This document shows, piece after piece, positions 17,736 through 60,623 of a stretch of DNA of 64,000 nt; the stretch's first letter is position 1; the number at the start of each line of letters is the position of its first letter. The position numbers were made by a program, and so were the translations under genes. This stretch comes from Clostridia bacterium. Its GTDB lineage: Bacteria > Bacillota > Clostridia > Oscillospirales > CAG-382. The notes below the pieces were generated by a model. That model made no database searches. It saw only the letters and a program-made list of their open reading frames with translations, and had not been told where the DNA came from. Location: positions 86 to 64,085 of the forward strand of contig JAFYPA010000075.1 of the NCBI GenBank assembly GCA_017560085.1, read 5' to 3'.

Positions 17736-18977
17736 ATGACGAATTCAAGCATTTACAGTGACATTAAGGCAAGGACGGGCGGAGATATTTACCTCGGCGT
17801 AGTGGGACCCGTAAGGACAGGAAAGTCGACCTTTATCAAGAAGTTTATGGAAACGGTTGTGCTTCCCAATATCACAAACAGCGACGAGCGTACACGGGCA
17901 AGGGACGAAATGCCTCAGAGTGCGGGCGGTAAAACCGTTATGACCACCGAGCCGAAATTTGTTCCCGATACGGCGGTGGAGATTGTTCTTGACGGCAATG
18001 CGGCACTTCGTGTCAAGATGATTGACTGCGTGGGCTATATTATCCCCGGGAGCCTCGGACATACCGAGGAGGAAAGACCGAGAATGGTTATGACACCGTG
18101 GTCGGATGAGGAAATGCCCTTTGACAAGGCGGCGGAAATCGGTACGGCTAAGGTCATAAACGACCATTCCACAATAGGAATTCTTGTCACGACGGACGGC
18201 ACAATAGGTGAACTCCCCCGTGAGAATTACATTGAAGCGGAGGAGCGTGTGGTACGGGAGCTTCGTGAGATAAACAAGCCCTTTGCGATAATTCTCAACA
18301 GCGCGAATCCCGATTCGGACTCTGCCGTAGACCTTGCGATTTCAATGGAGGAAAAATACAAGGCTCCCGTTGCACTTGTCAACTGCACGGACCTTACGGA
18401 GGAGGACATAAAGAAAATACTCGAGCTTGTTCTTCTTGAGTTTCCCATAACCGAGCTCGGCATTACAATTCCGTCCTGGATAGATACACTTCCTATAGAC
18501 CACAGAATAAAGAAAAACCTTTACGACACAGTAAACAGAACCGCCCTTGAAATAACCAAGGTAGGGCAGGCAAGAGAAGCCTTCGGCAATATTTCCGACG
18601 GAGATTTTGAAATAAGCATCCGTCCCGATGCAATAGACCTTTCCGGCGGAAGAGTCCACCTTTGCGCCGATGTCCCCGACGAGCTGTTTTACAGAATCCT
18701 CGGCGAGGAAACGGGATTTGAAATAGACGGTGAGGAGGCTCTTATGGTAAAGCTCCGCGAGCTTTCGGAGGTGAAAAAGGAGTACGACAAGCTGGAAAAG
18801 GCCATCACGGAGGTACGCGAAAACGGCTACGGAATTGTCGCTCCGTCCCTTGAGGATATGACGCTTGAGCAGCCTGAAATTGTCAAGCAGGGCGGAAGCT
18901 ACGGAGTAAGGCTTAAGGCTTCGGCACCGTCTATACATATGAGCTGTAGCAAACAGAAGTGTTCGTTTGTGGCGTAA
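17736..18977 (+). CDS. spoIVA: spoIVA 5' segment: codons 1-402 are authentic, followed by 11 element-encoded codons and a stop
   Basis: IYSDIKARTGGDIYLGVVGPVRTGKSTFIKKFME (Walker A) and the rest of the protein read as SpoIVA up to ...SAPSIHM. It then continues SCSKQKCSFVA*. Confidence 0.93.
   Translation: MTNSSIYSDIKARTGGDIYLGVVGPVRTGKSTFIKKFMETVVLPNITNSDERTRARDEMPQSAGGKTVMTTEPKFVPDTAVEIVLDGNAALRVKMIDCVGYIIPGSLGHTEEERPRMVMTPWSDEEMPFDKAAEIGTAKVINDHSTIGILVTTDGTIGELPRENYIEAEERVVRELREINKPFAIILNSANPDSDSAVDLAISMEEKYKAPVALVNCTDLTEEDIKKILELVLLEFPITELGITIPSWIDTLPIDHRIKKNLYDTVNRTALEITKVGQAREAFGNISDGDFEISIRPDAIDLSGGRVHLCADVPDELFYRILGEETGFEIDGEEALMVKLRELSEVKKEYDKLEKAITEVRENGYGIVAPSLEDMTLEQPEIVKQGGSYGVRLKASAPSIHMSCSKQKCSFVA
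18933..18942 (+). other. attL core ATACATATGA
   Basis: The same 10-mer occurs at 60342-60351. It is flanked on the inside by GCTGTAGCAAACAGAAGTG. Confidence 0.85.
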
Positions 18978-18993
18978 AATGGGCAAAGCTAAA

Positions 18994-19026
18994 GCACAGA
19001 GGTTTTTGGTCTCTGTGCCTTATTTT
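18994..19026 (+). terminator. intrinsic terminator just inside the element's left end
   Basis: Stem GCACAGAG / CTCTGTGC with a 9-nt loop, then CTTATTTTTGTT. It would terminate the truncated spoIVA transcript. Confidence 0.6.
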
Positions 19027-19092
19027 TGTTCTTGAGGTGTCAAATTGCATTTGGCAGGCATTACATTTCAATCCGTTTTTTCGCGTGTAAGC

Positions 19093-20040
19093 TCACCAGG
19101 CCTTGACCGCTCTTTCACACATATCATCAATATATTCCTTCTTCTTCAAAGCCGTGAGCCACTTTTCGGGTATCGAATCCAATCCGTACAGCGCTCCCGC
19201 AAGACCGCCCGCAATCGCTCCGACGGTGTCCGTGTCATCACCTAAATTCACCGCCGAAAGAACACATTCCTCGTAAGACTTACTGTGCAATAAACAATAT
19301 ACAGCCGCTTCAAGAGTAGCAACTACATACCCGCTTGAGGATATATCGCTTCTTTTTGTCAATATAAATGTTTTATTGAAGAGCTTACTGTATTTATCCG
19401 ACTCAGGATATGACTTATAATATTCTTTTGCTTTGTTTAATCCGTTAAGAATGCTTTCCCTGACAGGATTGTCCATAAGCTCCCACAAAACAAAAGCATA
19501 AATTCCGCAGGCGATTTTCGATCTTTCGTGTGCGTGGGTAAGTGCGGAAACGGAATGGATTATTTCTATCTTTTCTTCCGTGCTCAAATTTTTTCTTGTG
19601 TACAAATATAATGCAACCGGATGTATTCTCATCAGAGAGCCGTTACCGTTTGATTGCTCATTGTCAAGACCGCACAGATTGACCGGCTTTTTATTTACAA
19701 AGTAATTATCAATAGCGTAACTGCAGGTATTACCGACATCAAACATTTCTCCCGTCGGAGTGAATTCATCCTTGTAATACCATTTACCGAAGTTAATCAT
19801 TATGTCATCGTAATTAACCATTCCGAGAGTAAGGCTTTCCAAAGTACCCAACGACATACTCGTATCATCGGACCAACAGCCTTCGGGGTAGGGGTATGTA
19901 CCGAAGCCCGTCATATCCGTTACGGGATTCTCATCCAATTCATCTCTGTCACAGAATTCCACGGGTACACCGAGAGCATCGGCTACGGCGTGACCGAATA
20001 TAACTGCTTTTACTGTGTTGTTGAAATCTTTCATAGGCAC
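19093..20040 (-). CDS. ADP-ribosylglycohydrolase family protein
   Basis: 315 aa: GHAVADALGVPVEF, WSDDTSM, GNGSLMRIHPV, GDDTDTVGAIAGGLAGALYG. Confidence 0.88.
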   Translation of the reverse strand: MPMKDFNNTVKAVIFGHAVADALGVPVEFCDRDELDENPVTDMTGFGTYPYPEGCWSDDTSMSLGTLESLTLGMVNYDDIMINFGKWYYKDEFTPTGEMFDVGNTCSYAIDNYFVNKKPVNLCGLDNEQSNGNGSLMRIHPVALYLYTRKNLSTEEKIEIIHSVSALTHAHERSKIACGIYAFVLWELMDNPVRESILNGLNKAKEYYKSYPESDKYSKLFNKTFILTKRSDISSSGYVVATLEAAVYCLLHSKSYEECVLSAVNLGDDTDTVGAIAGGLAGALYGLDSIPEKWLTALKKKEYIDDMCERAVKAW

Positions 20041-20089
20041 CTCTCAAAAATTAAAATTGTCGGGATGAATTTTTGCACCGTCAAGTGCT

Positions 20090-20257
20090 TCAATCCTCTT
20101 CATCATCAAAAGCCGTATCGTCTTCTTCGGATTCCGCTTTTTCCGCTTCGGATACCATATTTACAAATGCAAAAAGGTCTGCGGCTCGCTCGAAGCTGTC
20201 CAGCTTTCCGTCTCTGTTAAAATCGAATATACCACCAAAAAAGCCTTTGTCAAACAT
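20090..20257 (-). CDS. 55-aa acidic protein with one canonical EF-hand loop (below the ORF-track cutoff)
   Basis: Hand translation gives MFDKGFFGGIFDFNRDGKLDSFERAADLFAFVNMVSEAEKAESEEDDTAFDDEED. The loop DFNRDGKLDSFE fits DxNxDGxxDxxE. GGAGG RBS with 8-nt spacing. Confidence 0.6.
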   Translation of the reverse strand: MFDKGFFGGIFDFNRDGKLDSFERAADLFAFVNMVSEAEKAESEEDDTAFDDEED

Positions 20258-20351
20258 AATCGGAACCTCCCGGGTGTTTGTTGAAGTGATTGTTTTTTCT
20301 CTTGATGTTACTATTATAACATATAGGGTGTACTATAAGCAGTACAGTGAT

Positions 20352-21248
20352 TTATTCAATACCATCCATCCCCAAAGCATCCTCCCCACGAGTCCTCCTG
20401 TACCTGTACTCCGTAGGCGACATCCCGATATTTCTTGAAAATACCCTGCTGAAATACAACGGATCACGGAATCCCGAGCTTTCCGCCACAAGTGAAATCG
20501 TCAGCGTCGTGCTTGTCAGAAGCTCGCAGGCGTTTCTGATTTTTACATCCTCTATGAATTTCTGCGGTGTCTTGCCCGTGGCTTTCTTGAAGGCTACCGA
20601 GTACATTCCCGGACTCATTCCGCACAGCTTTGCATATTCGGAGATCTTTCTCGGATAGCGGTATTCCCATTCCATCTGAATTATTCCCTTTATTACCTTG
20701 TCCGCATTTGAATATCCCGAAAGAGTGCTTGGAAGCATTGTTTCGTTTCGCAGTGCGATTTCAGAAAAAAGCTTCATAAATATGGCGTTTATATGTATAC
20801 TGCTTTTCGCAAGCCTCTGTGCAAGTATCATCTGACGGAATATGTCCGATATTACCGCCGTGCTTCCGACAGAGTACACTCCGCTTTCGTGGATTCCGCA
20901 CTGTGACAGAAGCTCGGGAATTGCATATCCGTTGAAATGCACCCAGTAATTTATCGGGTTGTCTGTCCTTTTCTTGACGATTTTATGCGGAATGTTCGGA
21001 AAGCACAGAATAAGGTCGCCCTTCTTTGCGGTCGTCTCCTTATCACCGAGCGTTATTTCTATAAGTCCCTCCGTCACAAAAAGTGCGTAATAATCCTCTC
21101 TGCCGTTCTTTCTTTCCGTTATGTGCATATCATAGAAATTGTGAGGAGGTCTGTGGTCGGATATGTCGCAGTAGCTTACGGTTATGTATTCGTCAGGCTC
21201 TTTTTTGTAGGGAAGGTCGCTGCTTCCGTCGTGGTATATTACTTTCAA
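20352..21248 (-). CDS. AraC family transcriptional regulator (cupin + HTH)
   Basis: 298 aa with the C-terminal AraC HTH pair (SEYAKLCGMSPGMYSVAFKK..., GFRDPLYFSRVFSRNIGMSPTEYR). Confidence 0.88.
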   Translation of the reverse strand: MKVIYHDGSSDLPYKKEPDEYITVSYCDISDHRPPHNFYDMHITERKNGREDYYALFVTEGLIEITLGDKETTAKKGDLILCFPNIPHKIVKKRTDNPINYWVHFNGYAIPELLSQCGIHESGVYSVGSTAVISDIFRQMILAQRLAKSSIHINAIFMKLFSEIALRNETMLPSTLSGYSNADKVIKGIIQMEWEYRYPRKISEYAKLCGMSPGMYSVAFKKATGKTPQKFIEDVKIRNACELLTSTTLTISLVAESSGFRDPLYFSRVFSRNIGMSPTEYRYRRTRGEDALGMDGIE

Positions 21249-21454
21249 TTCCGCATCCTCCGATTGATTTGAATTCCCGGTGCTTTTATTATAATCATTC
21301 GGGAATTTTTTGTCAATGATTTTTGTGAAAATAATCCATATTTATATAAAATAAATCCATTTACTTTGATTTGCGATACCCTTATAATGTAGATATAATG
21401 ATATTTATTTTAAGATTTACAAACTATCTTATTATGAAAGGAACGGTTGTAATT

Positions 21455-24400
21455 ATGAGAAAAATATCCGCATTGGTTATGGCATTGCTTCTTGCCTCAC
21501 AGAGCCTTTTTACGGCATTGGCTCTCACGGAGCAGAACTATGATTTTGCAAAGTACAATCCTCTTGTAGAGGAGAATTTCCCGCTTGCAAGAGAGGCGGC
21601 AGGTGAAGGTATTGTACTTCTTGAAAACAAAAACAACACGTTGCCTCTCGCCGCTGACAGCAAGGTTTCTCTTTTCGGTATCGGACAGATAGACTATGTT
21701 GCGGGCGGTACAGGCTCGGGTATTATCAATACCGCATACAAGGTGAACTTCCTTGACGGTATGCTTGATGCTGAAAAGAACGGAAAGCTCACCGTTGATT
21801 CTGCAACGGCAAAGGTATACTCTGATATATACGACGAATGGACACAGGCTGTTGCCGATGCCGAGGCGGCAGGAACAGCAAAGCCTTCTCTTGATGAGTA
21901 CGCCCTCACGGATGAGGATGTAGCAAAGGCAAGAGCTGAAAGCGACACGGCAGTATATTACATCAGAAGAATCCAGGGTGAAGGAAGCGACAGAAAGGCT
22001 GTGAAGGGCGACTATTACATCAGCGACATCGAGGCTTCAAACCTTGCGAAGATTGATGAGGCAGGCTTTGAGAACTTTATAATTGTAATAAACGCAGGTA
22101 CAGCGGTTGATACCTCCTTCTTCAAGGATTACGAAACAGCCGACTCCCTTATTATGGCGTGGCTTCCCGGCGTTGAGGGCGGTCTTGCACTTGCGGATGT
22201 TATGACGGGCGATGTGAACCCTTCGGGTAAGCTTACCGATACGTTCCTTAAGTCCTACGACTGCTATCCTTCCGCAGAAAGCTTCACCGAGTCACAGTCC
22301 TTTGTAAACTACACCGAGGACATTTACAACGGTTACAGATATTTTGAAACCTTCGACCCGGAATACACAATGGTAAACTATGAGTTCGGCTACGGACTTT
22401 CATATACCGAATTTACACTTTCAGGCGACAGCGCTACCGTTTCCGACGGCAATGTAAATGTTTCCGTAAGCGTTAAGAACACGGGCGAGTGTGCGGGTAA
22501 GGAAGTAATTCAGGTGTACTACGGCGCACCTCAGGGACTTCTCGGAAAGAGCGCAAGGGTTCTTGCGGGATATGCAAAGACAAAGCTTCTTGCTCCCGGT
22601 GAAACACAGAGGATTACAGTTACATTCCCCGTATCCGATATGGCATCCTTCGATGACCTCGGCAAGACGGGAAACAAGTCCGCATATGTTCTTGAAGCGG
22701 GCGACTACAATTTCTACATAGGTAACTCCGTGCGCAATGCGGGTGAAAGAGGCATAAAGGGTACATATACCGTTTCCGAAACCGTTGTAACACAGCAGCT
22801 TACCTCGCTTCTCACACCCAATGCTCTCGATAAGAGACTTGTTGCAAAAGAAGAAGCGGACGGAAGCCTCACAGCGGAATACGAGCGTCTTTCCGTTACA
22901 ACCGATGCCGACGGAAGCTACAAAATCGACCCCAATGCCGCACAGACAATAATTGATGCGGAAAACTACACGGATGGTACAGACGGACTTGAAACTCCCG
23001 TTCTTCCCATGCAGGACAACCTTAAATACGTTAAGGGAATGAAGAACGGCGAATACATAAGCTTTGCCTTCTCCAACGAAAATGCGGCTATGTATACAAT
23101 CGCACTCAACATCTCCAACGGTGGCGAGGCGGTTTCTCCCTCCTTCAATATTTATCTTAACGATACTCTCGTATGCAGTGACATCTCCGTTGCATCAACG
23201 GGAAGCGGTACTGCAGACGGTACATTCGTGTTCAGCGAAACCGAATTCGGACTTCTTGTATTCGAAAAGGGCAAGAGCACCGTAAAGATTGAATCCGCAA
23301 ACGACGGACTTCTTGACATTGACAGCATTATCTTAAGACCTGTTACAGACCTTCCCGTAATCAAGGCGGACAAAAAGACGGTTATCGAAGCGGAAAAATA
23401 CGATGTAGCCTATAACAATCCCGATGACGGCAACAATATGCTTATTAGTACCGAATCCGCTCTTGGCGAAACACTTGTTGCAAAGATGCAGGGTAAGGGC
23501 AACTACATAGAATACCGTTTCCTCGTTGAAGAGGCGGGAACATATGCGTTCACCTTCAACTATGCCGCAACGGGAAATATGACAAATCCCTATTCCATAA
23601 GCATAAACGGAACAGTTCAGGATGTAAGCTATACACTTGCAAAAACATCTCCCGAGGGTACAACAAGTGCCGACGGTATGGTGTTCTATAACACCTGTGC
23701 AGACGCAGAGCCTATAGACATTGTTCTTCCCGCGGGCTTTGTAACAATGAGAATTACCACAATCGGCGGTTCTCCCAACCTTAACAGATACACCTTTGAA
23801 AAGAAGTTCGAGCTTCCTTCAGGCTTTACACTGGTTTCGGGCACGGAAAACACCGAAATTGAGGCGGAAAATGCTTCCGCTATGGCTAAGGGTGTGTGGG
23901 CTGAAGTAAAGACCGTTGACGGCGTGGAAACAAAGGTACTCAACGCACTTACGGGCGAGGGCAAGTTCCTTGAATACAAGCTCTGGTTTGAAAAGGCGGG
24001 AGAGTACGGCGTTGTATTCAATGTTGCTTCTACCGCTAACGGCACAAATCCCTTCAGATTCCTTGCAAACGGCAACGAAATAGCTGTTTCCGACTACACA
24101 TTTACAAAAACAACTCCCGAGGGAGCAACCACATCCGACACGGATGCATACTATCACACATACCTCGATATGCCCGCGATAGCTATGGAATTCCCCGCAG
24201 GTAAGGTTATCTTCAGACTTGAAACAACAGATACAAAGCAGAAGCCCAATTTCAACAAGTTCACAATAAAGCCCGTTGCCGAATACGAGGCGGAAGCTCC
24301 CGCAGGCTACAGACAGGTGCTTGACACCGAGCCTCTTGTAATTCAGGCTGAAAGCTATGATGCAAACTTCAATGTACAGACACAGAAAATGAATCAGCTT

Positions 24401-51499: not shown

Positions 51500-51943
51500 T
51501 TATTTTACCTCAACCGTGCCGTCAGCCTTAACGGTAATTTCCATACCGTCCTTAACGTATGCGAGGAACTCGTCACCGAGCGAGTCAATAACGGGCATAT
51601 TAACGCCGTCAACCCATACATCAGCGATAATCGCACCTGCCGCCGCAAGGGAGTCGATGTGTCCCGAGAAAAGCATACAAGCGGGATTCTTACCCATAGA
51701 GCAGGCACAGTAAAGAACAAGTCCGCCCGTGGTTGAGCCTATTGTCTGCGGAAGGCAAAGAGCCTTGCCTATAAGGGGCTTTCCGTGAAGCTCGCTGTTG
51801 TTCTGGTCACCGCACTTAACCTGCTTGTCGCCGAACTGAAGTGCCATCTGAAAGGATGCGAGTGTGTTGAAGCCCTGTGTTGTAACAACCGCTTCAGCGG
51901 TTACCTCGCCGGGAGTTATAACTCTGCCCTTGAATGTTTTCAT
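51500..51943 (-). CDS. aconitase X swivel-domain subunit (DUF126)
   Basis: 147 aa, GRVITPGEVTAEAVV...GKALCLPQTIGSTTGGLVL. 1-nt overlap with the DUF521 gene. Confidence 0.75.
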   Translation of the reverse strand: MKTFKGRVITPGEVTAEAVVTTQGFNTLASFQMALQFGDKQVKCGDQNNSELHGKPLIGKALCLPQTIGSTTGGLVLYCACSMGKNPACMLFSGHIDSLAAAGAIIADVWVDGVNMPVIDSLGDEFLAYVKDGMEITVKADGTVEVK

Positions 51944-53217: not shown

Positions 53218-53272
53218 AGTATATATATTCTCCTTAATCTTTATATTGGATTTGTAAGGGACAGTGGACAGT

Positions 53273-53401
53273 GGATGTTGGAAGCTTCGCTTCCTTCAAA
53301 TAAATTCAAATGAAGATTGCGGAGAATACGCAGAATTCTTTGCAATCAACCAAGACCGCTTGCGGTCATAATTGTGCATTGTGCATTGTGAATTGTGCAT
53401 T
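53273..53401. repeat. composite intergenic repeat: GGAAGCTTCGCTTCC hairpin, CCAAGACCGCTTGCGGTC hairpin, then GTGCATT x4 (one unit GTGAATT)
   Basis: Read directly. The modules are shared with 1841-1950. Confidence 0.9.
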
Positions 53402-53442
53402 CCAATTTCGCACATCACCAAGCATCACGCACTAAGTACAGC

Positions 53443-55518
53443 TTAAATCTTCATACAAACGTCCCACGCGCCCCAGATAACAGTGCGCAAATTGCCTACC
53501 TTGGAAGCATCGCCGATAATGTGAACCTTTCCGCCCTTCTTTGCAATCGGTGCGGGATTGTAGCCGACGGAGAGTATAACGGAGTCTGTGTCAATTCCGA
53601 ATTCCTTGCCGTCCTTGTCCTTGACCGTGATACCGCCGTCACGAATTTCGCAGAGGGAGGTTTCGAGATGCACCTCTACCTTGTTGGTCTTGAAGAAGTC
53701 ACGGAGATAGCTTGTGTTTGCAAGGCAGATGCCCTTGCCCGTGATAAGGTCGTCCTGCATTTCTATAATAACGGGTGTCTTGCCCTTGCGGTAGAGGTCG
53801 TATGCGATTTCACAGCCCGTAAGACCGCCGCCGATTACGGCAACCTTGTTGCCTACCTCCGCTTTTCCGAGAAGATAGTCTATCGCTTCAACGGCTGTGT
53901 CCGCACCCTTTACGGGAATCTTCTTTGCTACGGCACCCGTTGCGATTACGATTTCGTCTGCATCGAGTGTCTTTATGTCCGTAATTTCGGCACCGAGCTT
54001 TACTTCAATGGGATGCTTTGAAAGCTCTCTTATGTACCAGCTGATGAGTGCCTTGTCCTTTTCCTTGAAGTCGGGTGCTGCCGCCGCTACGAATACACCG
54101 CCGAGTCTTTCGGACTTTTCGTAAAGCGTTACCGTGTGACCTCTCTTGGAAAGGAGAATTGCCGCCTCCATACCGCCGATACCGCCGCCGATTACAGCGA
54201 CCTTCTTCTGCTTCTTTGCTTTCTTTACGCTGTACTTCTTTGACTGCATTGTTTCGGGATTGAGCGCACATCTTGCAAGTCCCATAGTGTCGGTAAGGTC
54301 CTGAGTGTTTGCGTGTCCCTTTGAGGAGGAGAAGTTGAAGCAGCCCGCGTGACAGCAGATACAGGGCTTGATTTCTTCCATTCTGTCCTCAATCATCTTT
54401 GTAATCCATTCGGGGTCGACAAGGAACTGTCTTGCAACTCCGACAGCATCTATAAGTCCGTCTGCAACAGCCCTTGCACCTACCTCCGCATCCATTCTGC
54501 CCGCACATACTACGGGAATATCAACGAATTTCTTTATGTGTGCAACATCGGCAAGGTTGCAGTTTTCAGGCATATAAACAGGGGGATGCGCCCAGTACCA
54601 GGAGTCATATGCACCGTTGTCGGCGTTGAGCATATCGTAGCCCGCATCCTGAAGATACTTTGCCGCTCTTTCGGATTCTGCCATGCTTCTTCCGACCTCG
54701 GTGTATTCCTCACCGGGCATTGCGCCCTCGCAGAAGCCCTTCATCTTGGATTCTACTGAGTAGCGGAGAGATACGGGATAGTCGCTTCCGCATTCCTTTT
54801 TGATTGCCTTTACTACCTCTGCGGCGAAGCGGTATCTGTTTTCAAAGCTTCCGCCGTAGTCGTCTGTACGCTTGTTGAAGAATTCAATTGCGAACTGGTC
54901 AAGAAGGTAGCCCTCATGCACGGCGTGAATCTCCACACCGTCTACGCCTGCGTCACGGCAGAGCTTTGCGGTCTTTGCAAACGCCTCAATAATCTCGTGA
55001 ATCTGATGGGTTGTCATTTCGGGGCAGATAATATCGTGCGCCCAGCGTGAGGGCTGAGGGCTGGGACAAGCAAGCTCGTGGCTTGTGTCGATAATGGGCT
55101 TCACAAGTGCACGGGTGAACTTATTTTTGTGAAGGGGAGCGACAAGCTCTGTGATAGCCCAGCTTCTGCCCATACCTGCGGTGAGCTGAACAAAGAGCTT
55201 TGCGCCCGTCTTATGAATTTCGTCCATAAATTCACGAAGCTCGTCGAACATCTTGGGATTCTGCCAGAGCCACTTGCCGAAGAAGGTATCACGAAGCGGA
55301 GCGATACCGGGAATGATAAGACCTACGTTGTTATTGGCACGCTCAAGAAAGAGCTTTGCGGCTTCCTTGTCGAAGTGGCAGCCGCCGATTTCGAACCAGC
55401 CGAAGAGCGATGTACCGCCCATGGGACACATTACGATTCGGTTCTTGATTTCAACGTTTCCGATTTTCCAGGGGGTAAACAGCGCCTGATATTTTTCGTT
55501 TATGGTGTTCATATCCAT
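53443..55518 (-). CDS. OYE-type NADH:flavin oxidoreductase fused to an FAD/NAD(P)-binding domain (2,4-dienoyl-CoA / enoate reductase architecture)
   Basis: 691 aa. N-terminal TIM barrel (NRIVMCPMG, HAVHEGYLLDQF), Fe-S Cys motif CICCHAGC...C, then VAVIGGGIGGMEAA and VAVIGGGLTGCE. Confidence 0.85.
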   Translation of the reverse strand: MDMNTINEKYQALFTPWKIGNVEIKNRIVMCPMGGTSLFGWFEIGGCHFDKEAAKLFLERANNNVGLIIPGIAPLRDTFFGKWLWQNPKMFDELREFMDEIHKTGAKLFVQLTAGMGRSWAITELVAPLHKNKFTRALVKPIIDTSHELACPSPQPSRWAHDIICPEMTTHQIHEIIEAFAKTAKLCRDAGVDGVEIHAVHEGYLLDQFAIEFFNKRTDDYGGSFENRYRFAAEVVKAIKKECGSDYPVSLRYSVESKMKGFCEGAMPGEEYTEVGRSMAESERAAKYLQDAGYDMLNADNGAYDSWYWAHPPVYMPENCNLADVAHIKKFVDIPVVCAGRMDAEVGARAVADGLIDAVGVARQFLVDPEWITKMIEDRMEEIKPCICCHAGCFNFSSSKGHANTQDLTDTMGLARCALNPETMQSKKYSVKKAKKQKKVAVIGGGIGGMEAAILLSKRGHTVTLYEKSERLGGVFVAAAAPDFKEKDKALISWYIRELSKHPIEVKLGAEITDIKTLDADEIVIATGAVAKKIPVKGADTAVEAIDYLLGKAEVGNKVAVIGGGLTGCEIAYDLYRKGKTPVIIEMQDDLITGKGICLANTSYLRDFFKTNKVEVHLETSLCEIRDGGITVKDKDGKEFGIDTDSVILSVGYNPAPIAKKGGKVHIIGDASKVGNLRTVIWGAWDVCMKI

Positions 55519-55734
55519 TTTTTCCTTTCGGTAAAATATGAGATTTTTGGAGGGATTGCTTTATTTTTAACAATTATAGCACGTTGTGTGCCGAATGTCA
55601 ATACGATGGATAATTTTTGGCACGGTGAGGCTGCAGAAAATTTGGTAAAAGTGTTGAAATTTGTATTCTGCGGTGTTATAATATAAAATAAGCATTTATC
55701 CACGAAATACGCCAATCAAAGGAGTACCCGAAAT

Positions 55735-58359
55735 ATGGACAACACAGTATACTGCGTCTTAAGCCACACCCACTGGGACAGAGAATGGTACCGGCCCTTC
55801 GAGCAGTTCCGAATGAGGCTTTGCGATCTTATAAATAACCTTTTTGCAATATTGGAGCAGTACCCCGATTACATATTTCACCTCGATGCACAGACCGTTG
55901 TCCTTGAGGATTATCTTGAGGTCTATCCCGAAAACGAGGAAAAGCTTAAGGGATATATAAAGTCGGGCAATATCATCGTAGGTCCGTGGTATGTGCAGAA
56001 CGACTTTTATCTTTCAAGCGGTGAGGCTACCGTGAGAAATCTTCTTATCGGAATGAAAACAGCGGAGAAATTCGGCAAGTGCGCTACGGTTGGATATACT
56101 CCCGATCAGTTCGGACTCTGCAGTCAGCTTCCGCAGATTTTCGGGGGCTTTGGTATTAAGTACCACCTTTTCGGCAGAGGATATTCCCTGTTTGAAAAGA
56201 CGGAAAAGGGAGCGGTTGGTGCAAAGAAAAATATAAATTTCATATGGCAATCCCCCGACGGAAGCAGTGTGGTTTCTACGCTTATGCCGTTCTGGTACAA
56301 CAATGCACAGCGTCTTTCTCCCGATATTGACAAAACCCTATGGCGACTCGGCAACATGAAAAAGCTTTTCTCCGAGCGTACTGAATCGCCCTTTCTCATT
56401 CTTATGAACGGCGTTGACCATCTTGAAGCGCAGGACGATTTGCTGCCGATTATTGACGAGCTGAATAAACGCCTGCAGGGTGAAAAAATCCGTCAGTTCG
56501 TTATGGAGGATGCACTTAAGGCTAACGAGCCGTACGCCGCGGAAACGGTAACGGGTGAGCTTCGATACGGCAGAGAAGGTGAAATTCTTTCGGGAACGCT
56601 TTCCACAAGAACGGATATCAAAAAGCTGAACTTCGATGCCCAGAATCTTCTTGAACATAAAGTAGAGCCTCTTTATGCGATGATAAGCCTTATGGGCGCA
56701 GATATATATCCGTCAAATATGATTGACCTTATGTGGAAAAAGCTTATTCCCAACCACGCCCACGACAGCATATGCTGTTGCTCAAATTCCAATGTAATGA
56801 AGCATATGCAGGACAGATACCTCTCAATAAATGAGATAGGCAAGGAGCTTCTGCTTCGTGGCGGTCGCTTTATAAACAATCACATTAAAAGAGATACACA
56901 CGGCGACGGAGTATATTATCTCACCGCCATCAACACAAGTCAGATGCCGTATACCGGCGTTATGGAATGCGAGCTTGACATCAATATAAGTGATGCCGAC
57001 AAGGACTTCAGAATTTTCTCTCCCGACGGCAAAGAGGCAGAGTTCGTTATTCTCAACAAGGAAAAAGCGGTATTCTCAACCTTCAGCCCGCTGAATCTCC
57101 CCGGAAGCGTTGATGTTGTAAACTATAAAATTCAGCTGTTTGTAAAGGATATCCCCGCATTCGGATATGTGAACTATACCGTAAAAACAGGCTTTGACTA
57201 TACCGCAAGGAATTCCGATAAGGTGCTTGAAAACGACTGCATCAGGGTTGACTTTGACGGAGAAACGGTAAATCTTCTTGATAAATCAAACGACAGATAC
57301 TACAGAAATATTTTAAGCTTTGAGGATATAGGCGACAACGGTGATGCATACGTTTTCGAGCCGTTCAAGGATGATAAGCCCGTAAAAGCGGTGCTTGAAA
57401 ATGTTGAAATTCTGTATTGCAATCCTCTTAAGAGTGCGGTACGCCTTTCATACAGAATGGATGTCCCCGAGAGCAAAAGCGAAGAAGCAAGAGCGGGCAA
57501 AACGGTAACAAACAGACTTGAAGCCGTGCTGTCGCTGGGCAAGGACGAAAGAGCTTTGTCGGTTGATATAAAGCTTGAAAACAACAGCACATACCACCTT
57601 ACAAGGGCTGTGATAAACACCGAGGTGGACAACACGGCCACCTATGCTTCCTCCGTGTACGATGTAATAAAACGCGACTCAAGGGATGTTGACCTTGATA
57701 TAAGAACCTGCTACAGCCAGCCCAACAGCGGATTTGTATACAAGAAGTGCGACAGCCACGGCGTTGCGGTATTCACCAAGGGACTTTACGAATACGAAAA
57801 CAGAAGCAACAAGCTTATAGGACTTTCACTTCTGCGCTCAACGGATATGATTCTTGCGGGCGTTATCGATCCCAAGGCGTGGGGCGTAAAGGATAATCTT
57901 ATGACGGGAACATACAATCTGTCCTTCGCAATATTGCCCTTTGACGGCAACGCCGGACAGATTCCCGCAATGGAGCAGAGCATAAACAGTCAGCCGTTAT
58001 ATCATTTCGACAGCACGGACATCTATATGTTCGCAGGCGGAAGACCTGTCGTACAGGACAGTGACGTCGGCGAGCTGTATTTCCCCAAGGACAAATACGA
58101 ATCCCTTGAGCTTGAGCACAGTGCAGGTCTTATTTCCGTGAATGACGGAGTTTGCGTAACAGCTCTCAAAAAGGCGGTAAAGACGGATGATATTATTTTA
58201 AGAATGTATAATCCTTCGGATAGTAGTGTGGATAATGTTGTTTCCTTTGACGGCGGAAGAATTTCAAAGACGAATCTTGCGGAGGCTGAGGAGGCGGAGT
58301 TTGATAATTGTATCGGGAAGAAGGAAATTGAGACTTTGAAAATCACATCTGCCGATTGA
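55735..58359 (+). CDS. GH38 alpha-mannosidase (cytoplasmic type)
   Basis: 874 aa: LSHTHWDREWY, GPWYVQND, HAHDSICCCS. No signal peptide. Confidence 0.88.
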   Translation: MDNTVYCVLSHTHWDREWYRPFEQFRMRLCDLINNLFAILEQYPDYIFHLDAQTVVLEDYLEVYPENEEKLKGYIKSGNIIVGPWYVQNDFYLSSGEATVRNLLIGMKTAEKFGKCATVGYTPDQFGLCSQLPQIFGGFGIKYHLFGRGYSLFEKTEKGAVGAKKNINFIWQSPDGSSVVSTLMPFWYNNAQRLSPDIDKTLWRLGNMKKLFSERTESPFLILMNGVDHLEAQDDLLPIIDELNKRLQGEKIRQFVMEDALKANEPYAAETVTGELRYGREGEILSGTLSTRTDIKKLNFDAQNLLEHKVEPLYAMISLMGADIYPSNMIDLMWKKLIPNHAHDSICCCSNSNVMKHMQDRYLSINEIGKELLLRGGRFINNHIKRDTHGDGVYYLTAINTSQMPYTGVMECELDINISDADKDFRIFSPDGKEAEFVILNKEKAVFSTFSPLNLPGSVDVVNYKIQLFVKDIPAFGYVNYTVKTGFDYTARNSDKVLENDCIRVDFDGETVNLLDKSNDRYYRNILSFEDIGDNGDAYVFEPFKDDKPVKAVLENVEILYCNPLKSAVRLSYRMDVPESKSEEARAGKTVTNRLEAVLSLGKDERALSVDIKLENNSTYHLTRAVINTEVDNTATYASSVYDVIKRDSRDVDLDIRTCYSQPNSGFVYKKCDSHGVAVFTKGLYEYENRSNKLIGLSLLRSTDMILAGVIDPKAWGVKDNLMTGTYNLSFAILPFDGNAGQIPAMEQSINSQPLYHFDSTDIYMFAGGRPVVQDSDVGELYFPKDKYESLELEHSAGLISVNDGVCVTALKKAVKTDDIILRMYNPSDSSVDNVVSFDGGRISKTNLAEAEEAEFDNCIGKKEIETLKITSAD

Positions 58360-58445
58360 AAGGAAATATGCTATGAATAATCCGGAGCTGTGATTTTATT
58401 AAATAATCAAAAAAACAAAAATAAATTTCAAAGGAGAAATCAAAA

Positions 58446-59327
58446 ATGTCAAAAGAACTATCAAAGAAAGCCCTTGAGCTCATAAAGAAAATGCAGCAGG
58501 GCGAGCTTACGGAAAGCGTAATTTACGAACAGATTGCAAAATTCGCAAAGGGCGAAGAAAACAAGAAAACCTTGCGCCGTCTTGCCGAAGAGGAAAAGGC
58601 ACACTATGAAATCTGGAAAAGCTACACGGGCATCGAAATGAAGCCGCAGAAGGCGAAGGTGCTCAAGTATAAGCTCCTCGCAAGAATTTTCGGCTTCACA
58701 TTTGCCCTGAAGCTTATGGAAAACGGCGAGGAAAACGCACAGGACAAGTACGCAACACTCTTTGAAGAGGTTGAAGAAAGTAAGCACATCAAGGAGCAGG
58801 AGGAGGAGCACGAAAAGGCTCTTCTCGAAATGCTCGATGAGGAAAGACTTCAGTACGTTGGCAGTATGGTGCTTGGTATGAACGACGCTCTTGTAGAGCT
58901 TACGGGCTCTCTTGCGGGCTTTACCTTTGCAATGGCAAACACAAGACTTATCGCACTTTCGGGACTTATTATGGGTATTTCCGCAACTTTCTCAATGGCT
59001 TCCAGCGAATTCCTTGCGGCAAAGAGCGAGGGCAGAAAGGATGCCTTCAAGTCCTGCTCGTATACGGGCGTGGCGTACCTTATCACGGTTGCACTTCTGA
59101 TTCTGCCGTATCTCCTGCTTGAAAACTCGCAGTATATGATTGCACTTTTCGCTATGCTTGCGATTGTTATTCTGATTATTGCGGGATTCTCCTACTACAT
59201 ATCCGTTGCCAAGGGTGAAAGGTTCAAGCCCAAATTCCTTGAGATGACGGCAATAAGCGTAGGCGTTGCTGTGCTTTCCTTCTTTGTTGGTATTCTTGCG
59301 AAGAAGTTCCTTGGGGTTGACCTTTAA
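58446..59327 (+). CDS. ferritin-like/rubrerythrin domain fused to a VIT1/CCC1 iron-manganese transporter domain
   Basis: N-terminal ELTESVIYEQIA...EEEKAHYEIW four-helix-bundle motifs. C-terminal GMNDALVELTG...SMASSEFLA and hydrophobic helices. Confidence 0.8.
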   Translation: MSKELSKKALELIKKMQQGELTESVIYEQIAKFAKGEENKKTLRRLAEEEKAHYEIWKSYTGIEMKPQKAKVLKYKLLARIFGFTFALKLMENGEENAQDKYATLFEEVEESKHIKEQEEEHEKALLEMLDEERLQYVGSMVLGMNDALVELTGSLAGFTFAMANTRLIALSGLIMGISATFSMASSEFLAAKSEGRKDAFKSCSYTGVAYLITVALLILPYLLLENSQYMIALFAMLAIVILIIAGFSYYISVAKGERFKPKFLEMTAISVGVAVLSFFVGILAKKFLGVDL

Positions 59328-59377
59328 TAAAATAGCTTCGGAAATAAAAAATATTAAATTGTAACGGAGGAAGCAAT

Positions 59378-60124
59378 ATGCCCGCAAAGCAGCTCGCCCA
59401 AATGATAAAGGAATCAGACAACATAGTTTTCTTCGGCGGAGCGGGAGTTTCGACGGAGAGCGGTGTCAAGGATTACCGCAGTAAGGACGGAATCTACAAC
59501 ACCGAAAAGGATTTCGGAGTACCGCCCGAGAGGATTCTCAGCAGAAGCTTCTTTGCCGAAAATCCCGAGGTCTTTTACGATTTTTACAGAAAATACTTTA
59601 TGTCCGACGTAAAGCCCAATTCCGCACACAAGGCTCTTGCAAAGCTTGAGGAGATGGGAAAGCTCAGGGCTGTAATCACGCAGAACGTTGACAACCTCCA
59701 CTTTGCGGCAGGCAGTAAAAACGTTATCGAGCTTCACGGAAACACAAGGGAGTTCTACTGTAATTCCTGCAAGGCTGATATGCCCTACGCTGACGCCATG
59801 AATGCAATCACAAACGGCGGTGTGCCGAGATGCGTTCACTGTGCGGGAGCGGTAAGACCGAGAGTTGTTATGTACGAGGAAAAGCTCCACGAAGGAGTCC
59901 CCGAGCTTGCAATGGGGTACATCGCAAATGCGGATATGCTGATTGTCGGCGGAGCATCGCTTCTTGTGAATCCCGCGGCATCCTTTATAAGATTCTTCGG
60001 CGGGAAGCATTTCGTTATCATAAACAAGCAGGAAACGCCTTACGATTACAGAGCGGAGCTGATTGTCAGGGAGAATATCGGGGAGCTTCTGGAGAGGACG
60101 ATGGGGGAATACGGAAGGCTTTGA
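59378..60124 (+). CDS. cobB: NAD-dependent protein deacylase (Sir2/CobB family)
   Basis: FFGGAGVSTESGVKDYRS, TQNVDNLH, zinc ribbon CNSC...CVHC, and GASLLVNPAA. Confidence 0.9.
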   Translation: MPAKQLAQMIKESDNIVFFGGAGVSTESGVKDYRSKDGIYNTEKDFGVPPERILSRSFFAENPEVFYDFYRKYFMSDVKPNSAHKALAKLEEMGKLRAVITQNVDNLHFAAGSKNVIELHGNTREFYCNSCKADMPYADAMNAITNGGVPRCVHCAGAVRPRVVMYEEKLHEGVPELAMGYIANADMLIVGGASLLVNPAASFIRFFGGKHFVIINKQETPYDYRAELIVRENIGELLERTMGEYGRL

Positions 60125-60160
60125 GAAGTTGCTCCGATGTTTGAAGATTGAACGAAAAAT

Positions 60161-60192
60161 GCACAGAGGGTAGGTACTCTGTGCATCGTTTT
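60161..60192 (+). terminator. intrinsic terminator after cobB
   Basis: Stem GCACAGAG / CTCTGTGC with an 8-nt loop, then ATCGTTTTTT. The 8-bp stem is the same as in the terminator at 18994. Confidence 0.6.
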
Positions 60193-60262
60193 TTATGTGT
60201 TGGGGGTATCCGAACAGCACCGGGATTTTTGCAGCAAATCCCAAATAAATTCCAAATCCCTC

Positions 60263-60291
60263 TTGCAATTTCCGAAAAAACGAGTTAGAAT
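60263..60291 (+). promoter_or_regulatory. outward-facing sigmaA-like promoter at the element's right end
   Basis: TTGCAA, a 17-nt spacer, then TAGAAT, about 50 nt before the attR core and pointing into the spoIVA 3' segment and GH32 gene. Confidence 0.4.
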
Positions 60292-60341
60292 ATAACCAAG
60301 TAAAAACCCACCTCTCCAAGCACTTCTGTTTGCTGCAAGCC

Positions 60342-60351
60342 ATACATATGA
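60342..60351 (+). other. attR core ATACATATGA
   Basis: Identical to 18933-18942. It is preceded by CACTTCTGTTTGCTGCAAGCC, the inverted copy of the left end. Confidence 0.85.
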
Positions 60352-60623
60352 TCCGTGCCGACATCCAGACCGAAGTAAGTCCGATAGTCGGCAGTGAGCG
60401 ACAGTCGGAGGACGTCGTAAAATTCTTGCTTGACGAATTTGAGGAAAAGCCCGAAAAGATATGGGAGTCCAATATGTTCGGAAAGTCCCTTTATGAGCTT
60501 GTAAACGAGGGCATAAATGCCAAGCTTGCCCATATGCCTTATGATTCAAGGCTGAAAATTGCCGATACTCTTCGCAGAATTATCAACGACGGAAGCAACG
60601 GACTTATCTGCATAATTCTGTAA
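60351..60623 (+). CDS. spoIVA: spoIVA 3' segment (codons 403-492 plus stop); no start codon or RBS of its own
   Basis: IRADIQTEVSPIVGSERQSEDVVKFLLDEFEEKPEKIWESNMFGKSLYELVNEGINAKLAHMPYDSRLKIADTLRRIINDGSNGLICIIL is the conserved SpoIVA C-terminus. It is in frame with 17736-18941 across the shared core. Confidence 0.9.
   Translation: MRADIQTEVSPIVGSERQSEDVVKFLLDEFEEKPEKIWESNMFGKSLYELVNEGINAKLAHMPYDSRLKIADTLRRIINDGSNGLICIIL

What the first reader, a model, noticed from the sequence alone, without database searches (positions are those of the whole stretch)
17736..60623. spoIVA is split by a 41.4-kb insertion, and the halves rejoin in frame to a full-length 492-codon gene
**Seen in the sequence.**
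- ORF 17736-18977 is unmistakably SpoIVA (Walker A GPVRTGKST and the following domains) up to ...LKASAPSIHM at codon 402. It then runs into 11 unrelated codons and a stop.
- On the same strand, 41.4 kb downstream, the frame at 60351-60623 encodes IRADIQTEVSPIVGSERQSEDVVKFLLDEFEE...RIINDGSNGLICIIL. This is the conserved SpoIVA C-terminal assembly region.
- Both junctions contain ATACATATGA. The codon phase of the ATG inside that core is the same at both sites.
- Deleting 18943-60351 therefore gives 402 + 90 = 492 codons. That is the length I remember for B. subtilis SpoIVA.

**Established knowledge.**
- Mother-cell sporulation genes can be interrupted by elements that a serine recombinase excises during sporulation. 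Known examples are sigK (skin), spsM (SPbeta), spoVFB, spoVR and gerE.
- spoIVA is a sigmaE-dependent mother-cell gene essential for coat basement-layer assembly.
- I do not recall spoIVA being reported as a host gene for such an element.

**Inference.**
- This is either a developmentally excised intervening element or a fixed disruption that makes the strain asporogenous.
- SpoIVA is needed very early after asymmetric division, so excision would have to be faster or earlier than in the sigK paradigm. That makes the regulation interesting.
Basis: partly seen in the sequence, partly recalled or inferred. Interest (0 to 1): 0.95.

Follow-up and report, generated by a model that had tools for sequence, protein, structure and literature searches.

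The report
Excisable island splitting sporulation gene spoIVA
The spore-coat gene spoIVA is cut in two by a 41.4-kb DNA island that carries its own site-specific recombinase, and the same recombinase family splits spoIVA at the same codon in at least 50 other bacterial species, so it is most likely cut out during spore formation to rebuild the gene.

Summary
spoIVA codons 1-402 (17736-18942) and 403-492 (60352-60623) lie on the same strand. They are separated by 41,409 bp bounded by the only two copies of ATACATATGA in the window. The in-frame join matches the SpoIVA equivalog model end to end (1-492 of 492).

The insert carries no phage or conjugation domains among the ORFs scanned. It holds metabolic and defence cargo plus one large serine recombinase (LSR, 47857-49572). 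A conserved 53-aa ORF (47616-47777) sits just upstream, behind a sigmaE-type promoter.

The junctions rebuild a palindromic attP (ACTTCTGTTTG-N26-CAAACAGAAGT) centred on an invariant CA.

LSR relatives were fetched from 80 species-representative genomes. Fifty lie next to a spoIVA fragment broken at the same codon, with the same att arms. Elements range from 3.1 to 10 kb and include cultured Ruminiclostridium and Pseudoflavonifractor/Flavonifractor strains.

Both halves and the LSR are under purifying selection. This holds in the window's own lineage and in a pair that inherited the element from a common ancestor.

Best reading: a skin-like spoIVA-intervening element excised in the mother cell. 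Excision itself was not observed. I found no report of spoIVA as a host gene in the searchable literature.

The parts
17660..17688 (+). Possible sigmaE-type promoter of spoIVA (GCATTTT-N13-CATATCCA). Low confidence.
   Evidence: Read from the sequence. It resembles the mother-cell -10 CATA box and the ATA-type -35 described in PMC3789822. It was not tested by comparison with other genomes.
17736..18942 (+). spoIVA 5' segment, codons 1-402. The ORF as it stands runs on to 18977 through 11 element-encoded codons.
   Evidence: Deposited as MBR5308513.1, 'stage IV sporulation protein A', 413 aa.
18917..18961 (+). attL. It holds the attB half-site GGCACCGTCT, the core ATACATATGA (18933-18942) with the likely crossover CA at 18936-18937, and the attP arm GCTGTAGCAAACAGAAGTG (18943-18961).
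   Evidence: The arm motif CAAACAGAAGT is conserved at attL in about 20 species.
18938..60346 (.). Intervening element, 41,409 bp. It has the same G+C content as its flanks and no tRNA genes. Cargo includes ADP-ribosylglycohydrolase, three AraC regulators, a 1985-aa GH3/dockerin protein and two glycyl-radical enzymes with an activase. It also includes SDRs, a FAD oxidoreductase with a GDSL lipase, a GmrSD restriction enzyme, MatE and ADH. Further cargo is an RNase T-like exonuclease, ApbA, AcnX, OYE, GH38, VIT1 and SIR2.
   Evidence: Pfam and PADLOC scans. Composition and tRNA scans. No phage structural or conjugation domains were found among about 30 ORFs.
18994..19018 (+). Terminator-like hairpin just after the truncated spoIVA ORF.
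47464..47491 (+). Sigma70-like promoter (GTTACA-16-TATAAT) upstream of the small ORF.
   Evidence: This is a consensus match only.
47551..47579 (+). SigmaE-type promoter candidate (GCATACT-N14-CATATAAA). A second mother-cell-type -10 box, CATATTAT, lies at 47543-47550.
   Evidence: The pattern ATA-N16-18-CATA occurs upstream of the orthologous small ORF in 16 of 44 non-redundant loci. Dinucleotide shuffles gave 2.9 +/- 1.7. The consensus comes from PMC3789822.
47616..47777 (+). Conserved 53-aa ORF, the candidate recombination directionality factor. It is a predicted helix-loop-helix.
   Evidence: It is the only gene besides the LSR shared by 16 of 17 fully bounded elements. An HMM built from it hits 54 loci, always on the LSR strand. 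pN is below pS in all 10 pairs compared. AF2 gave pLDDT 85. It has no curated family. Deposited as a hypothetical protein, MBR5308537.1.
47792..47815 (+). Intrinsic-terminator-like hairpin between the small ORF and the recombinase gene.
   Evidence: It is conserved in strain variant L180.
47857..49572 (+). Large serine recombinase, 571 aa, with Resolvase and Recombinase domains. The R29 and S31 motif YYARVST is intact.
   Evidence: pN/pS is 0.13 against a strain variant.
60159..60186 (+). Terminator-like hairpin after the last cargo gene (SIR2).
60321..60370 (+). attR. It holds the attP arm CACTTCTGTTTGCTGCAAGCC (60321-60341), the core ATACATATGA (60342-60351) with CA at 60345-60346, and the attB half-site TCCGTGCC.
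   Evidence: The arm ACTTCTGTTTG is conserved at attR in about 45 species. It is kept in strain L012 even though the 212 bp next to it are deleted there.
60352..60623 (+). spoIVA 3' segment, codons 403-492 plus stop. It is annotated from the ATG at 60348 as a 91-aa protein.
   Evidence: Deposited as MBR5308547.1.

Best explanation
This is a skin-like, spoIVA-intervening element: a 41.4-kb non-phage genomic island inserted by a large serine recombinase (LSR) into the His401 codon of spoIVA.

**Proposed mechanism**
- In growing cells and in the forespore the island stays integrated. spoIVA is then split, and only a truncated 413-aa product can be made.
- After asymmetric division, mother-cell sigmaE transcribes the 53-aa ORF just upstream of the LSR gene. 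This ORF is proposed to be the recombination directionality factor (RDF).
- The RDF switches the LSR to attL x attR recombination at the central CA.
- The island leaves as a circle carrying the palindromic attP. The chromosome regains attB, which is an intact 492-codon spoIVA. That gene is then expressed from its own promoter to build the coat basement layer.
- The mother cell lyses, so the island is inherited through the spore genome.

**Shown here**
- The split and the exact in-frame join.
- The att architecture.
- An intact LSR with a conserved partner ORF.
- The family-wide target site.
- Purifying selection on both halves and on the LSR.

**Inferred**
- Excision itself and its restriction to the mother cell.
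- The RDF role of the small ORF.
- Dependence on sigmaE.
For: **1. Anatomy**
- The join gives a full-length SpoIVA.
- The reconstructed attP is an imperfect palindrome, and attB also has dyad symmetry (GGCACCG...CGGTGCC-like).

**2. Family**
- An alignment of LSR relatives retrieved 80 species-representative loci.
- Fifty of them have a spoIVA fragment within 10 kb.
- In 41 loci the C-fragment starts within 250 nt after the LSR gene on the same strand. In three more (L032, L048, L057) it overlaps the end of the LSR gene. It begins at residues 399-401 in most of these loci.
- Sixteen loci show both halves, bounding elements of 3.1-10 kb.
- In an independent SpoIVA protein search, seven protein clusters are N-fragments of 413 or 435 aa. 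All end at ...APSIH[M/I], followed by related tails.
- The att arms and the central CA are conserved across species.

**3. Function is maintained**
- 47 of 47 C-fragments are open for 88-90 codons up to the canonical stop. 19 of 19 N-fragments have no internal stop.
- R. papyrosolvens C7 and a related MAG are collinear at 89.6% DNA identity across flanks and element.
- In that pair, spoIVA-N has pN 0.006 and pS 0.29. spoIVA-C has pN 0 and pS 0.40. The LSR has pN 0.028 and pS 0.33.
- In the window's own lineage, the N-fragment shows 2 nonsynonymous and 14 synonymous differences (pN/pS 0.04) with an identical attL. The LSR shows pN/pS 0.13.

**4. Recombination unit**
- The small ORF and the LSR are the only genes shared by the elements.
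- The order small ORF, LSR, attR, 3' gene half matches skr-spoIVCA-attR in skin (Galperin preprint).

**5. Promoter**
- A sigmaE-type ATA-N16-18-CATA pattern lies upstream of the small ORF in the window and in 16 of 44 loci.
- Shuffles gave 2.9 +/- 1.7 (maximum 8 in 500). The reverse strand gave 3.

**6. Empty site**
- A related species has an intact spoIVA in the same upstream gene neighbourhood.
Against: - No excision product was seen. A pattern for attP found nothing in IMG/VR or JGI metagenome contigs.
- The exact joined 492-aa protein is absent from the 15-billion-protein collection. Such products would be rare and transient in bulk samples, so this is weak evidence.
- The organism is an uncultured MAG. 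Its ability to sporulate is unknown, and a second spoIVA copy elsewhere in the genome cannot be excluded from one contig.
- The strict sigmaE pattern is missing in about two thirds of loci. A sigma70-like promoter also precedes the small ORF in the window.
- The small ORF has no similarity to known RDFs or to any curated family.
- The LSR lies 10.8 kb from attR here, unlike most family members. A trans-acting recombinase does not need to be adjacent.
- SpoIVA acts early, so a sigmaE-dependent excision step would delay its synthesis.
Confidence: 0.8

Rival explanations
1. Fixed disruption. The island can no longer excise, spoIVA is a dead gene, and the lineage does not sporulate. The halves merely have not decayed yet.
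For: - No excised form was detected.
- The element is large, cargo-laden and matched to host composition.
- The LSR is displaced 10.8 kb from attR.
- Some carrier genera such as Flavonifractor are listed as non-spore-forming in a published survey.
Against: - Purifying selection acts on both halves and on the LSR, within the window's lineage (pN/pS 0.04 and 0.13). It also acts in the R. papyrosolvens pair that inherited the element.
- All 47 C-fragments and all 19 N-fragments are intact.
- The att arms match the family consensus. They are retained even next to a deletion.
Confidence: 0.07
2. An integrative mobile element whose excision serves transfer or induction and is not developmentally programmed. 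spoIVA is simply a conserved landing site, and sporulation succeeds only in cells that happen to lose the element.
For: - Near-identical elements occur in diverged hosts. In L070 versus L071 the LSR has pS 0.04 while the host spoIVA-C has pS 0.40. This shows horizontal movement.
- The distribution among close relatives is patchy. Intact SpoIVA at 83-84% identity is closer to the window than other split copies.
- One IMG/VR viral contig ends in an attR-like arm right after a related LSR.
- A sigma70-like promoter precedes the small ORF.
Against: - The window's element has no phage, conjugation or mobilisation genes among those scanned.
- No intact spoIVA allele closer than 84% identity turned up for this species-level lineage, and every right-junction contig recovered carries the element.
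- In the R. papyrosolvens C7 pair (L023/L024) the element diverged together with its host.
- SigmaE-type promoters are enriched upstream of the small ORF.
- The two modes are not exclusive. SPbeta does both.
Confidence: 0.08
3. The two halves are translated separately and assemble into a working SpoIVA without any DNA rearrangement.
For: - The 3' half begins at an in-frame ATG (60348).
- A sigma70-like promoter at 60263-60291 points into it.
Against: - No Shine-Dalgarno sequence precedes the ATG.
- The ATG is simply the conserved Met402 codon of intact genes.
- This reading does not explain why an intact LSR and palindromic att sites are conserved at every split.
Confidence: 0.03
4. Assembly artefact or chimeric contig.
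For: The window comes from a metagenome assembly.
Against: - Both junctions recur in independent assemblies and samples, including diverged strains.
- The same architecture occurs in 50 other genomes, including isolates.
Confidence: 0.01

Closest known systems
skin element of Bacillus subtilis (sigK; SpoIVCA recombinase with the RDF Skr)
   Same: - An LSR-bearing element splits a mother-cell sporulation gene.
- The recombination unit is ordered small RDF gene, LSR gene, attR, 3' gene half, with the LSR at the edge next to the 3' fragment.
- SigmaE drives the unit.
- Cargo is otherwise unrelated between elements.
- LSR relatives at 40-43% identity to the window's LSR do sit next to sigK 3' fragments.
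   Different: - The host gene is spoIVA, a structural ATPase, not a sigma factor.
- The window's element has no phage-like genes.
- Its LSR is 10.8 kb from attR.
- The small ORF does not overlap the LSR gene. A terminator-like hairpin separates them.
- Excision is not demonstrated.
skinCd of Clostridioides difficile (CD1231 recombinase with the RDF CD1234)
   Same: A small acidic RDF gene (72 aa) under sigmaE/SpoIIID control lies near a separately transcribed LSR gene. The window likewise has a sigmaE-type promoter on the small ORF and a terminator before the LSR gene.
   Different: - The target gene and att sites differ.
- The small ORF matches no curated family, and CD1234 is described as having no significant database similarity. 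The two were not compared directly.
- The LSR promoter here is not identified.
gin element in gerE of Bacillus cereus ATCC 10987
   Same: A non-prophage gene-intervening element that rebuilds a sporulation gene.
   Different: - gin carries three recombinase genes, whereas this element has one LSR.
- gerE is a late, sigmaK-dependent gene.
SPbeta in spsM, vfbin in spoVFB, vrin in spoVR, yin in yabG, and the kamA prophages
   Same: Excision by an LSR plus RDF restores a mother-cell gene. The elements are inherited through the spore.
   Different: - Those are prophages or prophage remnants found in one or a few species.
- This family was found in 50 species-representative genomes with varied taxonomic labels. 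These include Oscillospiraceae, Ruminiclostridium, Lachnospiraceae, Defluviitaleaceae, Anaerovorax and MAGs labelled Bacilli.
- Its cargo here is mostly metabolic.

Membership tests
Sporulation-gene intervening element (skin type) | Interrupts the coding sequence of a mother-cell sporulation gene, with both halves on one strand. | tested here: met
   spoIVA 1-402 and 403-492 are both on the + strand. That spoIVA belongs to the sigmaE regulon is established knowledge.
Sporulation-gene intervening element (skin type) | Short identical core at both junctions, so that excision restores the exact reading frame. | tested here: met
   A 10-bp core at 18933 and 60342. The join gives a 492-aa full-length SpoIVA.
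Sporulation-gene intervening element (skin type) | Encodes its own site-specific recombinase with intact catalytic residues. | tested here: met
   A 571-aa LSR with Resolvase and Recombinase domains. It has all columns that are invariant across 20 relatives, including R29 and S31. pN/pS is 0.13.
Sporulation-gene intervening element (skin type) | attP-type inverted arms around the core, with a conserved central dinucleotide. | tested here: met
   ACTTCTGTTTG-N26-CAAACAGAAGT with an invariant central CA at all junctions inspected.
Sporulation-gene intervening element (skin type) | An RDF gene near the recombinase gene, expressed from a mother-cell promoter. | tested here: inconclusive
   A conserved 53-aa ORF lies upstream of the LSR gene in 54 loci. 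A sigmaE-type motif is enriched upstream of it, 16 of 44 against 2.9 expected. No homology to known RDFs was found, and there is no interaction or expression data.
Sporulation-gene intervening element (skin type) | Excision occurs in the mother cell during sporulation. | not testable with these tools
   This needs cultures. Searches for attP or attB products in public contigs found none.
Sporulation-gene intervening element (skin type) | Inherited vertically while the split gene stays functional. | tested here: met
   The L023/L024 pair co-diverged at 89.6% DNA identity over the whole locus. dN/dS is 0-0.02 on the spoIVA halves. The window's own lineage shows pN/pS 0.04.
Prophage | Phage structural, packaging or lysis genes. 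| tested here: not met
   Pfam scans of about 30 ORFs show only metabolic, regulatory and defence domains.
SpoIVA (TIGR02836 / PF09547+PF20438+PF20439) | Full-length match above the curated cut-offs. | tested here: met
   Met only by the joined product, at 685 bits against 459.9 over 1-492 of 492. All three Pfam domains are complete.
Large serine recombinase | N-terminal resolvase catalytic domain, recombinase domain, then a zinc-ribbon and coiled-coil C-terminal region. | tested here: met
   PF00239 and PF07508 are present, as is PHROG 95 integrase. PF13408 (zinc ribbon) is recorded for several close homologues but did not pass the threshold in the window's protein. Conserved Cys residues are present.

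The most novel reading that the evidence does not exclude
A previously undescribed and widespread family of spoIVA-intervening elements exists in Clostridia and related Bacillota. Its unit is an LSR plus a dedicated small helical partner.

- Its sigmaE-timed excision would be an obligatory DNA-rearrangement checkpoint at the very first step of spore-coat and cortex morphogenesis.
- The locus would also serve as a vertically inherited safe harbour that accumulates accessory metabolic and defence genes.
- Genomes carrying it, including gut Flavonifractor, Pseudoflavonifractor and Oscillospiraceae, would be mis-scored as lacking a core sporulation gene.
Probability: 0.55. Interest if true: 0.75.

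Novelty: new member of a known kind. Interest (0 to 1): 0.62.

Why it matters
[quoted passage not shown] It is used as a marker of sporulation capacity. A recurrent programmed split means automated annotation reports two partial genes, as the MAG's deposited record does with 413-aa and 91-aa 'SpoIVA' proteins. Sporulation potential can then be mis-called.
- The finding adds a new and unusually widespread host gene to the short list of developmentally rearranged sporulation genes. It places a DNA rearrangement upstream of the earliest coat-assembly step.
- It supplies cultured strains in which the idea can be tested directly.
- It offers a new LSR/att pair with a well-defined 48-bp attP and a candidate RDF. 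Such pairs are of interest for genome engineering.

Tried and rejected
- **attP circles or free elements.** The patterns ACTTCTGTTTG-N26-CAAACAGAAGT and TTCTGTTTG-N12-CAYAT-N9-CAAACAGAA gave 0 hits in IMG/VR and JGI metagenome contigs.
- **An intact allele of this species.** The exact joined 492-aa protein and a strain variant are not in the 15-billion-protein collection.
- **Phage relatives.** The closest IMG/VR recombinase is 46% identical, and no viral locus carries a SpoIVA fragment.
- **Identity of the small ORF.** It has no Pfam, NCBIfam or PHROG family, only sub-threshold SHOCT_2 and phrog_2996 matches. The AF2 model is a generic helical hairpin with no significant PDB match. A homologue search by shared words found only 5 relatives. 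A profile search found 66 representative clusters.
- **Synonymous-only variation in the 91-aa fragment.** This is discounted as a formal test, because those contigs were retrieved by exact protein identity. It was replaced by comparisons free of that bias.
- **First strict promoter regex.** It was too narrow and found little. It was replaced by the ATA-N16-18-CATA test with shuffles and a reverse-strand control.
- **Abe et al. 2013 (Mol Microbiol).** This paper might list further host genes, but it is not held in the library.

Full report
**1. Checking the observation**

The ORF at 17736-18977 encodes SpoIVA residues 1-402, ending ...KASAPSIHM. Eleven unrelated codons (SCSKQKCSFVA) and a stop follow. 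The frame at 60352-60623 on the same strand encodes IRADIQTEV...NGLICIIL.

The 10-mer ATACATATGA occurs only at 18933 and 60342 in the window. Removing 18943-60351 gives a 492-aa protein. It fills Pfam SpoIVA_ATPase, SpoIVA_middle and SpoIVA_C completely. It also matches the NCBIfam equivalog TIGR02836 over 1-492 of 492, at 685 bits against a cut-off of 459.9.

The window matches an ENA metagenome contig. The proteins are also deposited from a 'Clostridia bacterium' MAG as two separate 'stage IV sporulation protein A' entries of 413 and 91 aa.

The junctions are not assembly artefacts:
- The left junction recurs on independent ENA and Logan contigs.
- The right junction recurs on 11 contigs from several samples.
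- These include strain variants only 88-96% identical in DNA.

**2. What the insert contains**

The insert carries about 30 genes. Pfam and PADLOC identify the following:
- an ADP-ribosylglycohydrolase and three AraC regulators
- a 1985-aa GH3 protein with a dockerin
- two glycyl-radical enzymes with an activase
- dehydrogenases, and a FAD oxidoreductase with a GDSL lipase
- a GmrSD-type restriction enzyme and an AAA_15 ATPase
- MatE, an exonuclease, AcnX, an old-yellow-enzyme homologue, GH38, VIT1 and SIR2

No phage structural or conjugation domain was found. G+C content is the same as in the flanks, and there are no tRNA genes.

The only recombination gene is a 571-aa large serine recombinase (LSR) at 47857-49572. 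It has Resolvase and Recombinase domains, and it carries every residue that is invariant among 20 relatives, including the YYARVST serine motif.

**3. The att sites**

Just inside the left junction lies GCTGTAGCAAACAGAAGTG. Just inside the right junction lies CACTTCTGTTTGCTGCAAGCC.

Joining the two element ends gives an imperfect palindrome, ACTTCTGTTTG-N26-CAAACAGAAGT. This is the form expected of an LSR attP. The rejoined spoIVA site also has dyad symmetry.

**4. The element belongs to a large family**

A search with the joined SpoIVA returned seven protein clusters at 75-100% identity that are N-fragments of 413 or 435 aa, one of them the window's own protein. All end at ...APSIH[M/I] and are followed by related tails. 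They sit in the same gene neighbourhood but carry different cargo.

The LSR has thousands of relatives. A scan of one genome per GTDB species with an LSR alignment kept the best 80 loci. Among these:
- 50 have a spoIVA fragment within 10 kb.
- In 41 the C-fragment starts within 250 nt after the LSR gene on the same strand. In three more it overlaps the end of the LSR gene. It begins at residue 399-401 in most of them.
- 16 show both halves, bounding elements of only 3.1-10 kb.

Carriers include Ruminiclostridium papyrosolvens C7, R. sufflavum DSM 19573, Pseudoflavonifractor capillosus An827, Flavonifractor sp. An306, P. intestinihominis and Anaerovorax sp. IOR16. They also include many MAGs labelled Oscillospiraceae, Lachnospiraceae, Defluviitaleaceae and Bacilli.

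The att arms are conserved across all of them. The only invariant core bases are the CA of the His401 codon, which lies exactly at the attP symmetry centre. This is the likely crossover dinucleotide.

A related species has an intact spoIVA in the same upstream neighbourhood, which serves as an empty site.

**5. Is the split gene alive?**

The loci were retrieved through the LSR, so they are not biased towards conserved SpoIVA. All 47 C-fragments are open for 88-90 codons up to the canonical stop. All 19 N-fragments lack internal stops.

The cleanest case is R. papyrosolvens C7 against a related MAG. The two are collinear at 89.6% DNA identity over 21.5 kb, including a 6.2-kb element. The element therefore predates their split.

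| Segment | pN | pS |
|---|---|---|
| spoIVA N-half | 0.006 | 0.29 |
| spoIVA C-half | 0 | 0.40 |
| LSR | 0.028 | 0.33 |

In the window's own lineage, a strain variant with an identical attL differs in the N-half by 14 synonymous and 2 nonsynonymous changes (pN/pS 0.04). A variant LSR gives pN/pS 0.13.

I set aside one tempting result. All 17 variable sites in the 91-aa fragment are synonymous. However, those contigs were found by exact protein identity, so the result is partly built in.

One pair shows a nearly identical element (LSR pS 0.04) in hosts whose spoIVA has pS 0.40. The elements therefore also move horizontally.

**6. The recombination unit and its control**

Only two gene families are shared by the fully bounded elements. 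One is the LSR. The other is a small ORF of 46-98 aa with the core motif ELKL.IN..L[FY].KG.I[ST]EE[ML]Y..AKE.

An HMM of the small ORF hits 54 loci, always on the LSR strand and usually immediately upstream. In the window it is the 53-aa ORF at 47616-47777, deposited as a hypothetical protein.

What is known about the small ORF:
- pN is below pS in all 10 pairs compared.
- It is predicted to be a helix-loop-helix, with pLDDT 85.
- It has no curated family and no significant structural match.
- It has 66 representative clusters among 1.84 billion proteins.

The order small ORF, LSR, attR, 3' gene half is that of skr-spoIVCA in skin. In C. difficile the RDF CD1234 is a 72-aa protein under sigmaE/SpoIIID control, while the recombinase is constitutive.

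In the window the small ORF is preceded by GCATACT-N14-CATATAAA (47551-47579). A terminator-like hairpin (47792-47815) follows it, before the LSR gene. Mother-cell promoters in C. difficile have -10 boxes such as CATATTAT or CATATAAT, with an ATA -35 for sigmaE.

The pattern ATA-N16-18-CATA was tested upstream of the small ORF.

| Test set | Loci with the pattern |
|---|---|
| Upstream of the small ORF (44 non-redundant loci) | 16 |
| Dinucleotide shuffles (mean +/- sd, maximum of 500) | 2.9 +/- 1.7, max 8 |
| Reverse strand of the same regions | 3 |

The -35 part is mostly [GT]CATA. I therefore propose that the small protein is the RDF and that sigmaE times excision. This is an inference.

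**7. Mechanism proposed**

- Integrated state: spoIVA is split, and a truncated 413-aa protein is the only possible product.
- In the mother cell, sigmaE drives the small ORF.
- The LSR recombines attL x attR at the central CA.
- A 41.4-kb circle with attP is released, and the 492-codon spoIVA is restored.
- The forespore keeps the element.

The anatomy, the family distribution and the selection signals are shown here. Excision, its cell specificity and the RDF role are not.

**8. Rival explanations**

- A dead gene is contradicted by the selection data.
- Excision for transfer alone does not fit the lack of mobility genes. It also does not fit the absence of any intact spoIVA allele for this lineage, or the co-divergence of element and host in the R. 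papyrosolvens pair. Horizontal movement clearly happens in the family, though, and the two modes can coexist, as in SPbeta.
- Separate translation of the two halves lacks a ribosome-binding site and does not explain the conserved recombination machinery.
- Misassembly is excluded (see section 1).

**9. Comparison with known systems, and novelty**

The system works like skin, skinCd, SPbeta/spsM, vfbin, vrin, gin and yin. It meets all the sequence-level criteria of that class. The experimental criterion, excision in the mother cell, cannot be tested here.

LSR relatives at 40-43% identity sit next to sigK 3' fragments. The spoIVA clade is therefore a neighbour of a skin-type clade.

Eight full-text searches found no report of spoIVA as a host gene. 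A 2022 survey of sporulation genes reports split sigK only, and it calls SpoIVA universally conserved. Subscription papers, notably Abe et al. 2013, could not be read.

I file this as a new member of a known kind. It has a new host gene, unusually wide distribution and non-phage cargo.

**10. Limits**

- The host is an uncultured MAG.
- Only one contig was seen, so a second spoIVA copy cannot be excluded.
- No excision product was found in public contigs or protein sets.
- The promoter and RDF assignments rest on consensus matches and on conservation.

Noticed in passing
L043:11594-12200 (Lachnospiraceae MAG CAJUST010000016.1): An LSR relative (46.7% identical, with the small ORF upstream) is followed directly by a Csp-type germination-protease fragment that starts near model position 123 (NCBIfam CspC/CspBA). 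This may be an intervening element in a csp gene.
   Followed up: partly
L060, L065, L066 (Flavonifractor sp. An82, F. porci, a Eubacteriales MAG), about 11600-12100 in L060 and L065; viral locus L099: LSR relatives at 41-43% identity in L060, L065 and L066 are followed by SigK C-terminal fragments (TIGR02846 positions 65/74-227 for the two sequences scanned). These look like skin-type elements, so the spoIVA-targeting clade neighbours a sigK-targeting clade. Viral locus L099 (40% identity) is followed by a sigma-factor-like stretch seen only by eye, and the small-ORF HMM hits it weakly.
   Followed up: partly
window 60263-60291 (+): A sigma70-like promoter (TTGCAA-17-TAGAAT) inside the right end of the element points outward across attR. 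It reads into the spoIVA 3' half and the GH32 gene, which starts only 20 nt after the spoIVA stop. It could give vegetative expression of downstream host genes. It is conserved in strain L011 and deleted in L012, where the att arm is nevertheless kept.
   Followed up: partly
L070 vs L071 ('Bacilli' and 'Tenericutes' MAGs): The elements are nearly identical (LSR pS 0.04) although the host spoIVA C-halves differ at pS 0.40. This suggests recent horizontal transfer of a 7.1-kb element between diverged hosts.
   Followed up: partly
L026:877-3718 and L027:7279-11578: The spoIVA fragment lies on the opposite strand from the LSR gene, unlike the rest of the family. This is an unexplained orientation variant.
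   Followed up: no
window 31335-35187 and 41282-43393: The cargo includes a GmrSD-type (type IV) restriction enzyme. It also includes an AAA_15 (PtuA/AriA-like) ATPase preceded by four ORFs with no family match, which may be a defence module.
   Followed up: partly
L096 (IMGVR_UViG_3300014643_000020, 124-kb viral contig), last 70 nt: The contig ends just after a 46%-identical LSR and small ORF, in an attR-like arm (ACGTCTGTTTGTACC...CACAT). This may be a true prophage member of the family.
   Followed up: no
L019 and L022 (LSR 56-61% identical), also L017 and L020: In the sub-clade closest to the window, the spoIVA 3' half is 1-4.5 kb away from the LSR gene or not within 10 kb, as in the window (10.8 kb). 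Cargo seems to have been inserted between the LSR gene and attR in this sub-clade.
   Followed up: partly
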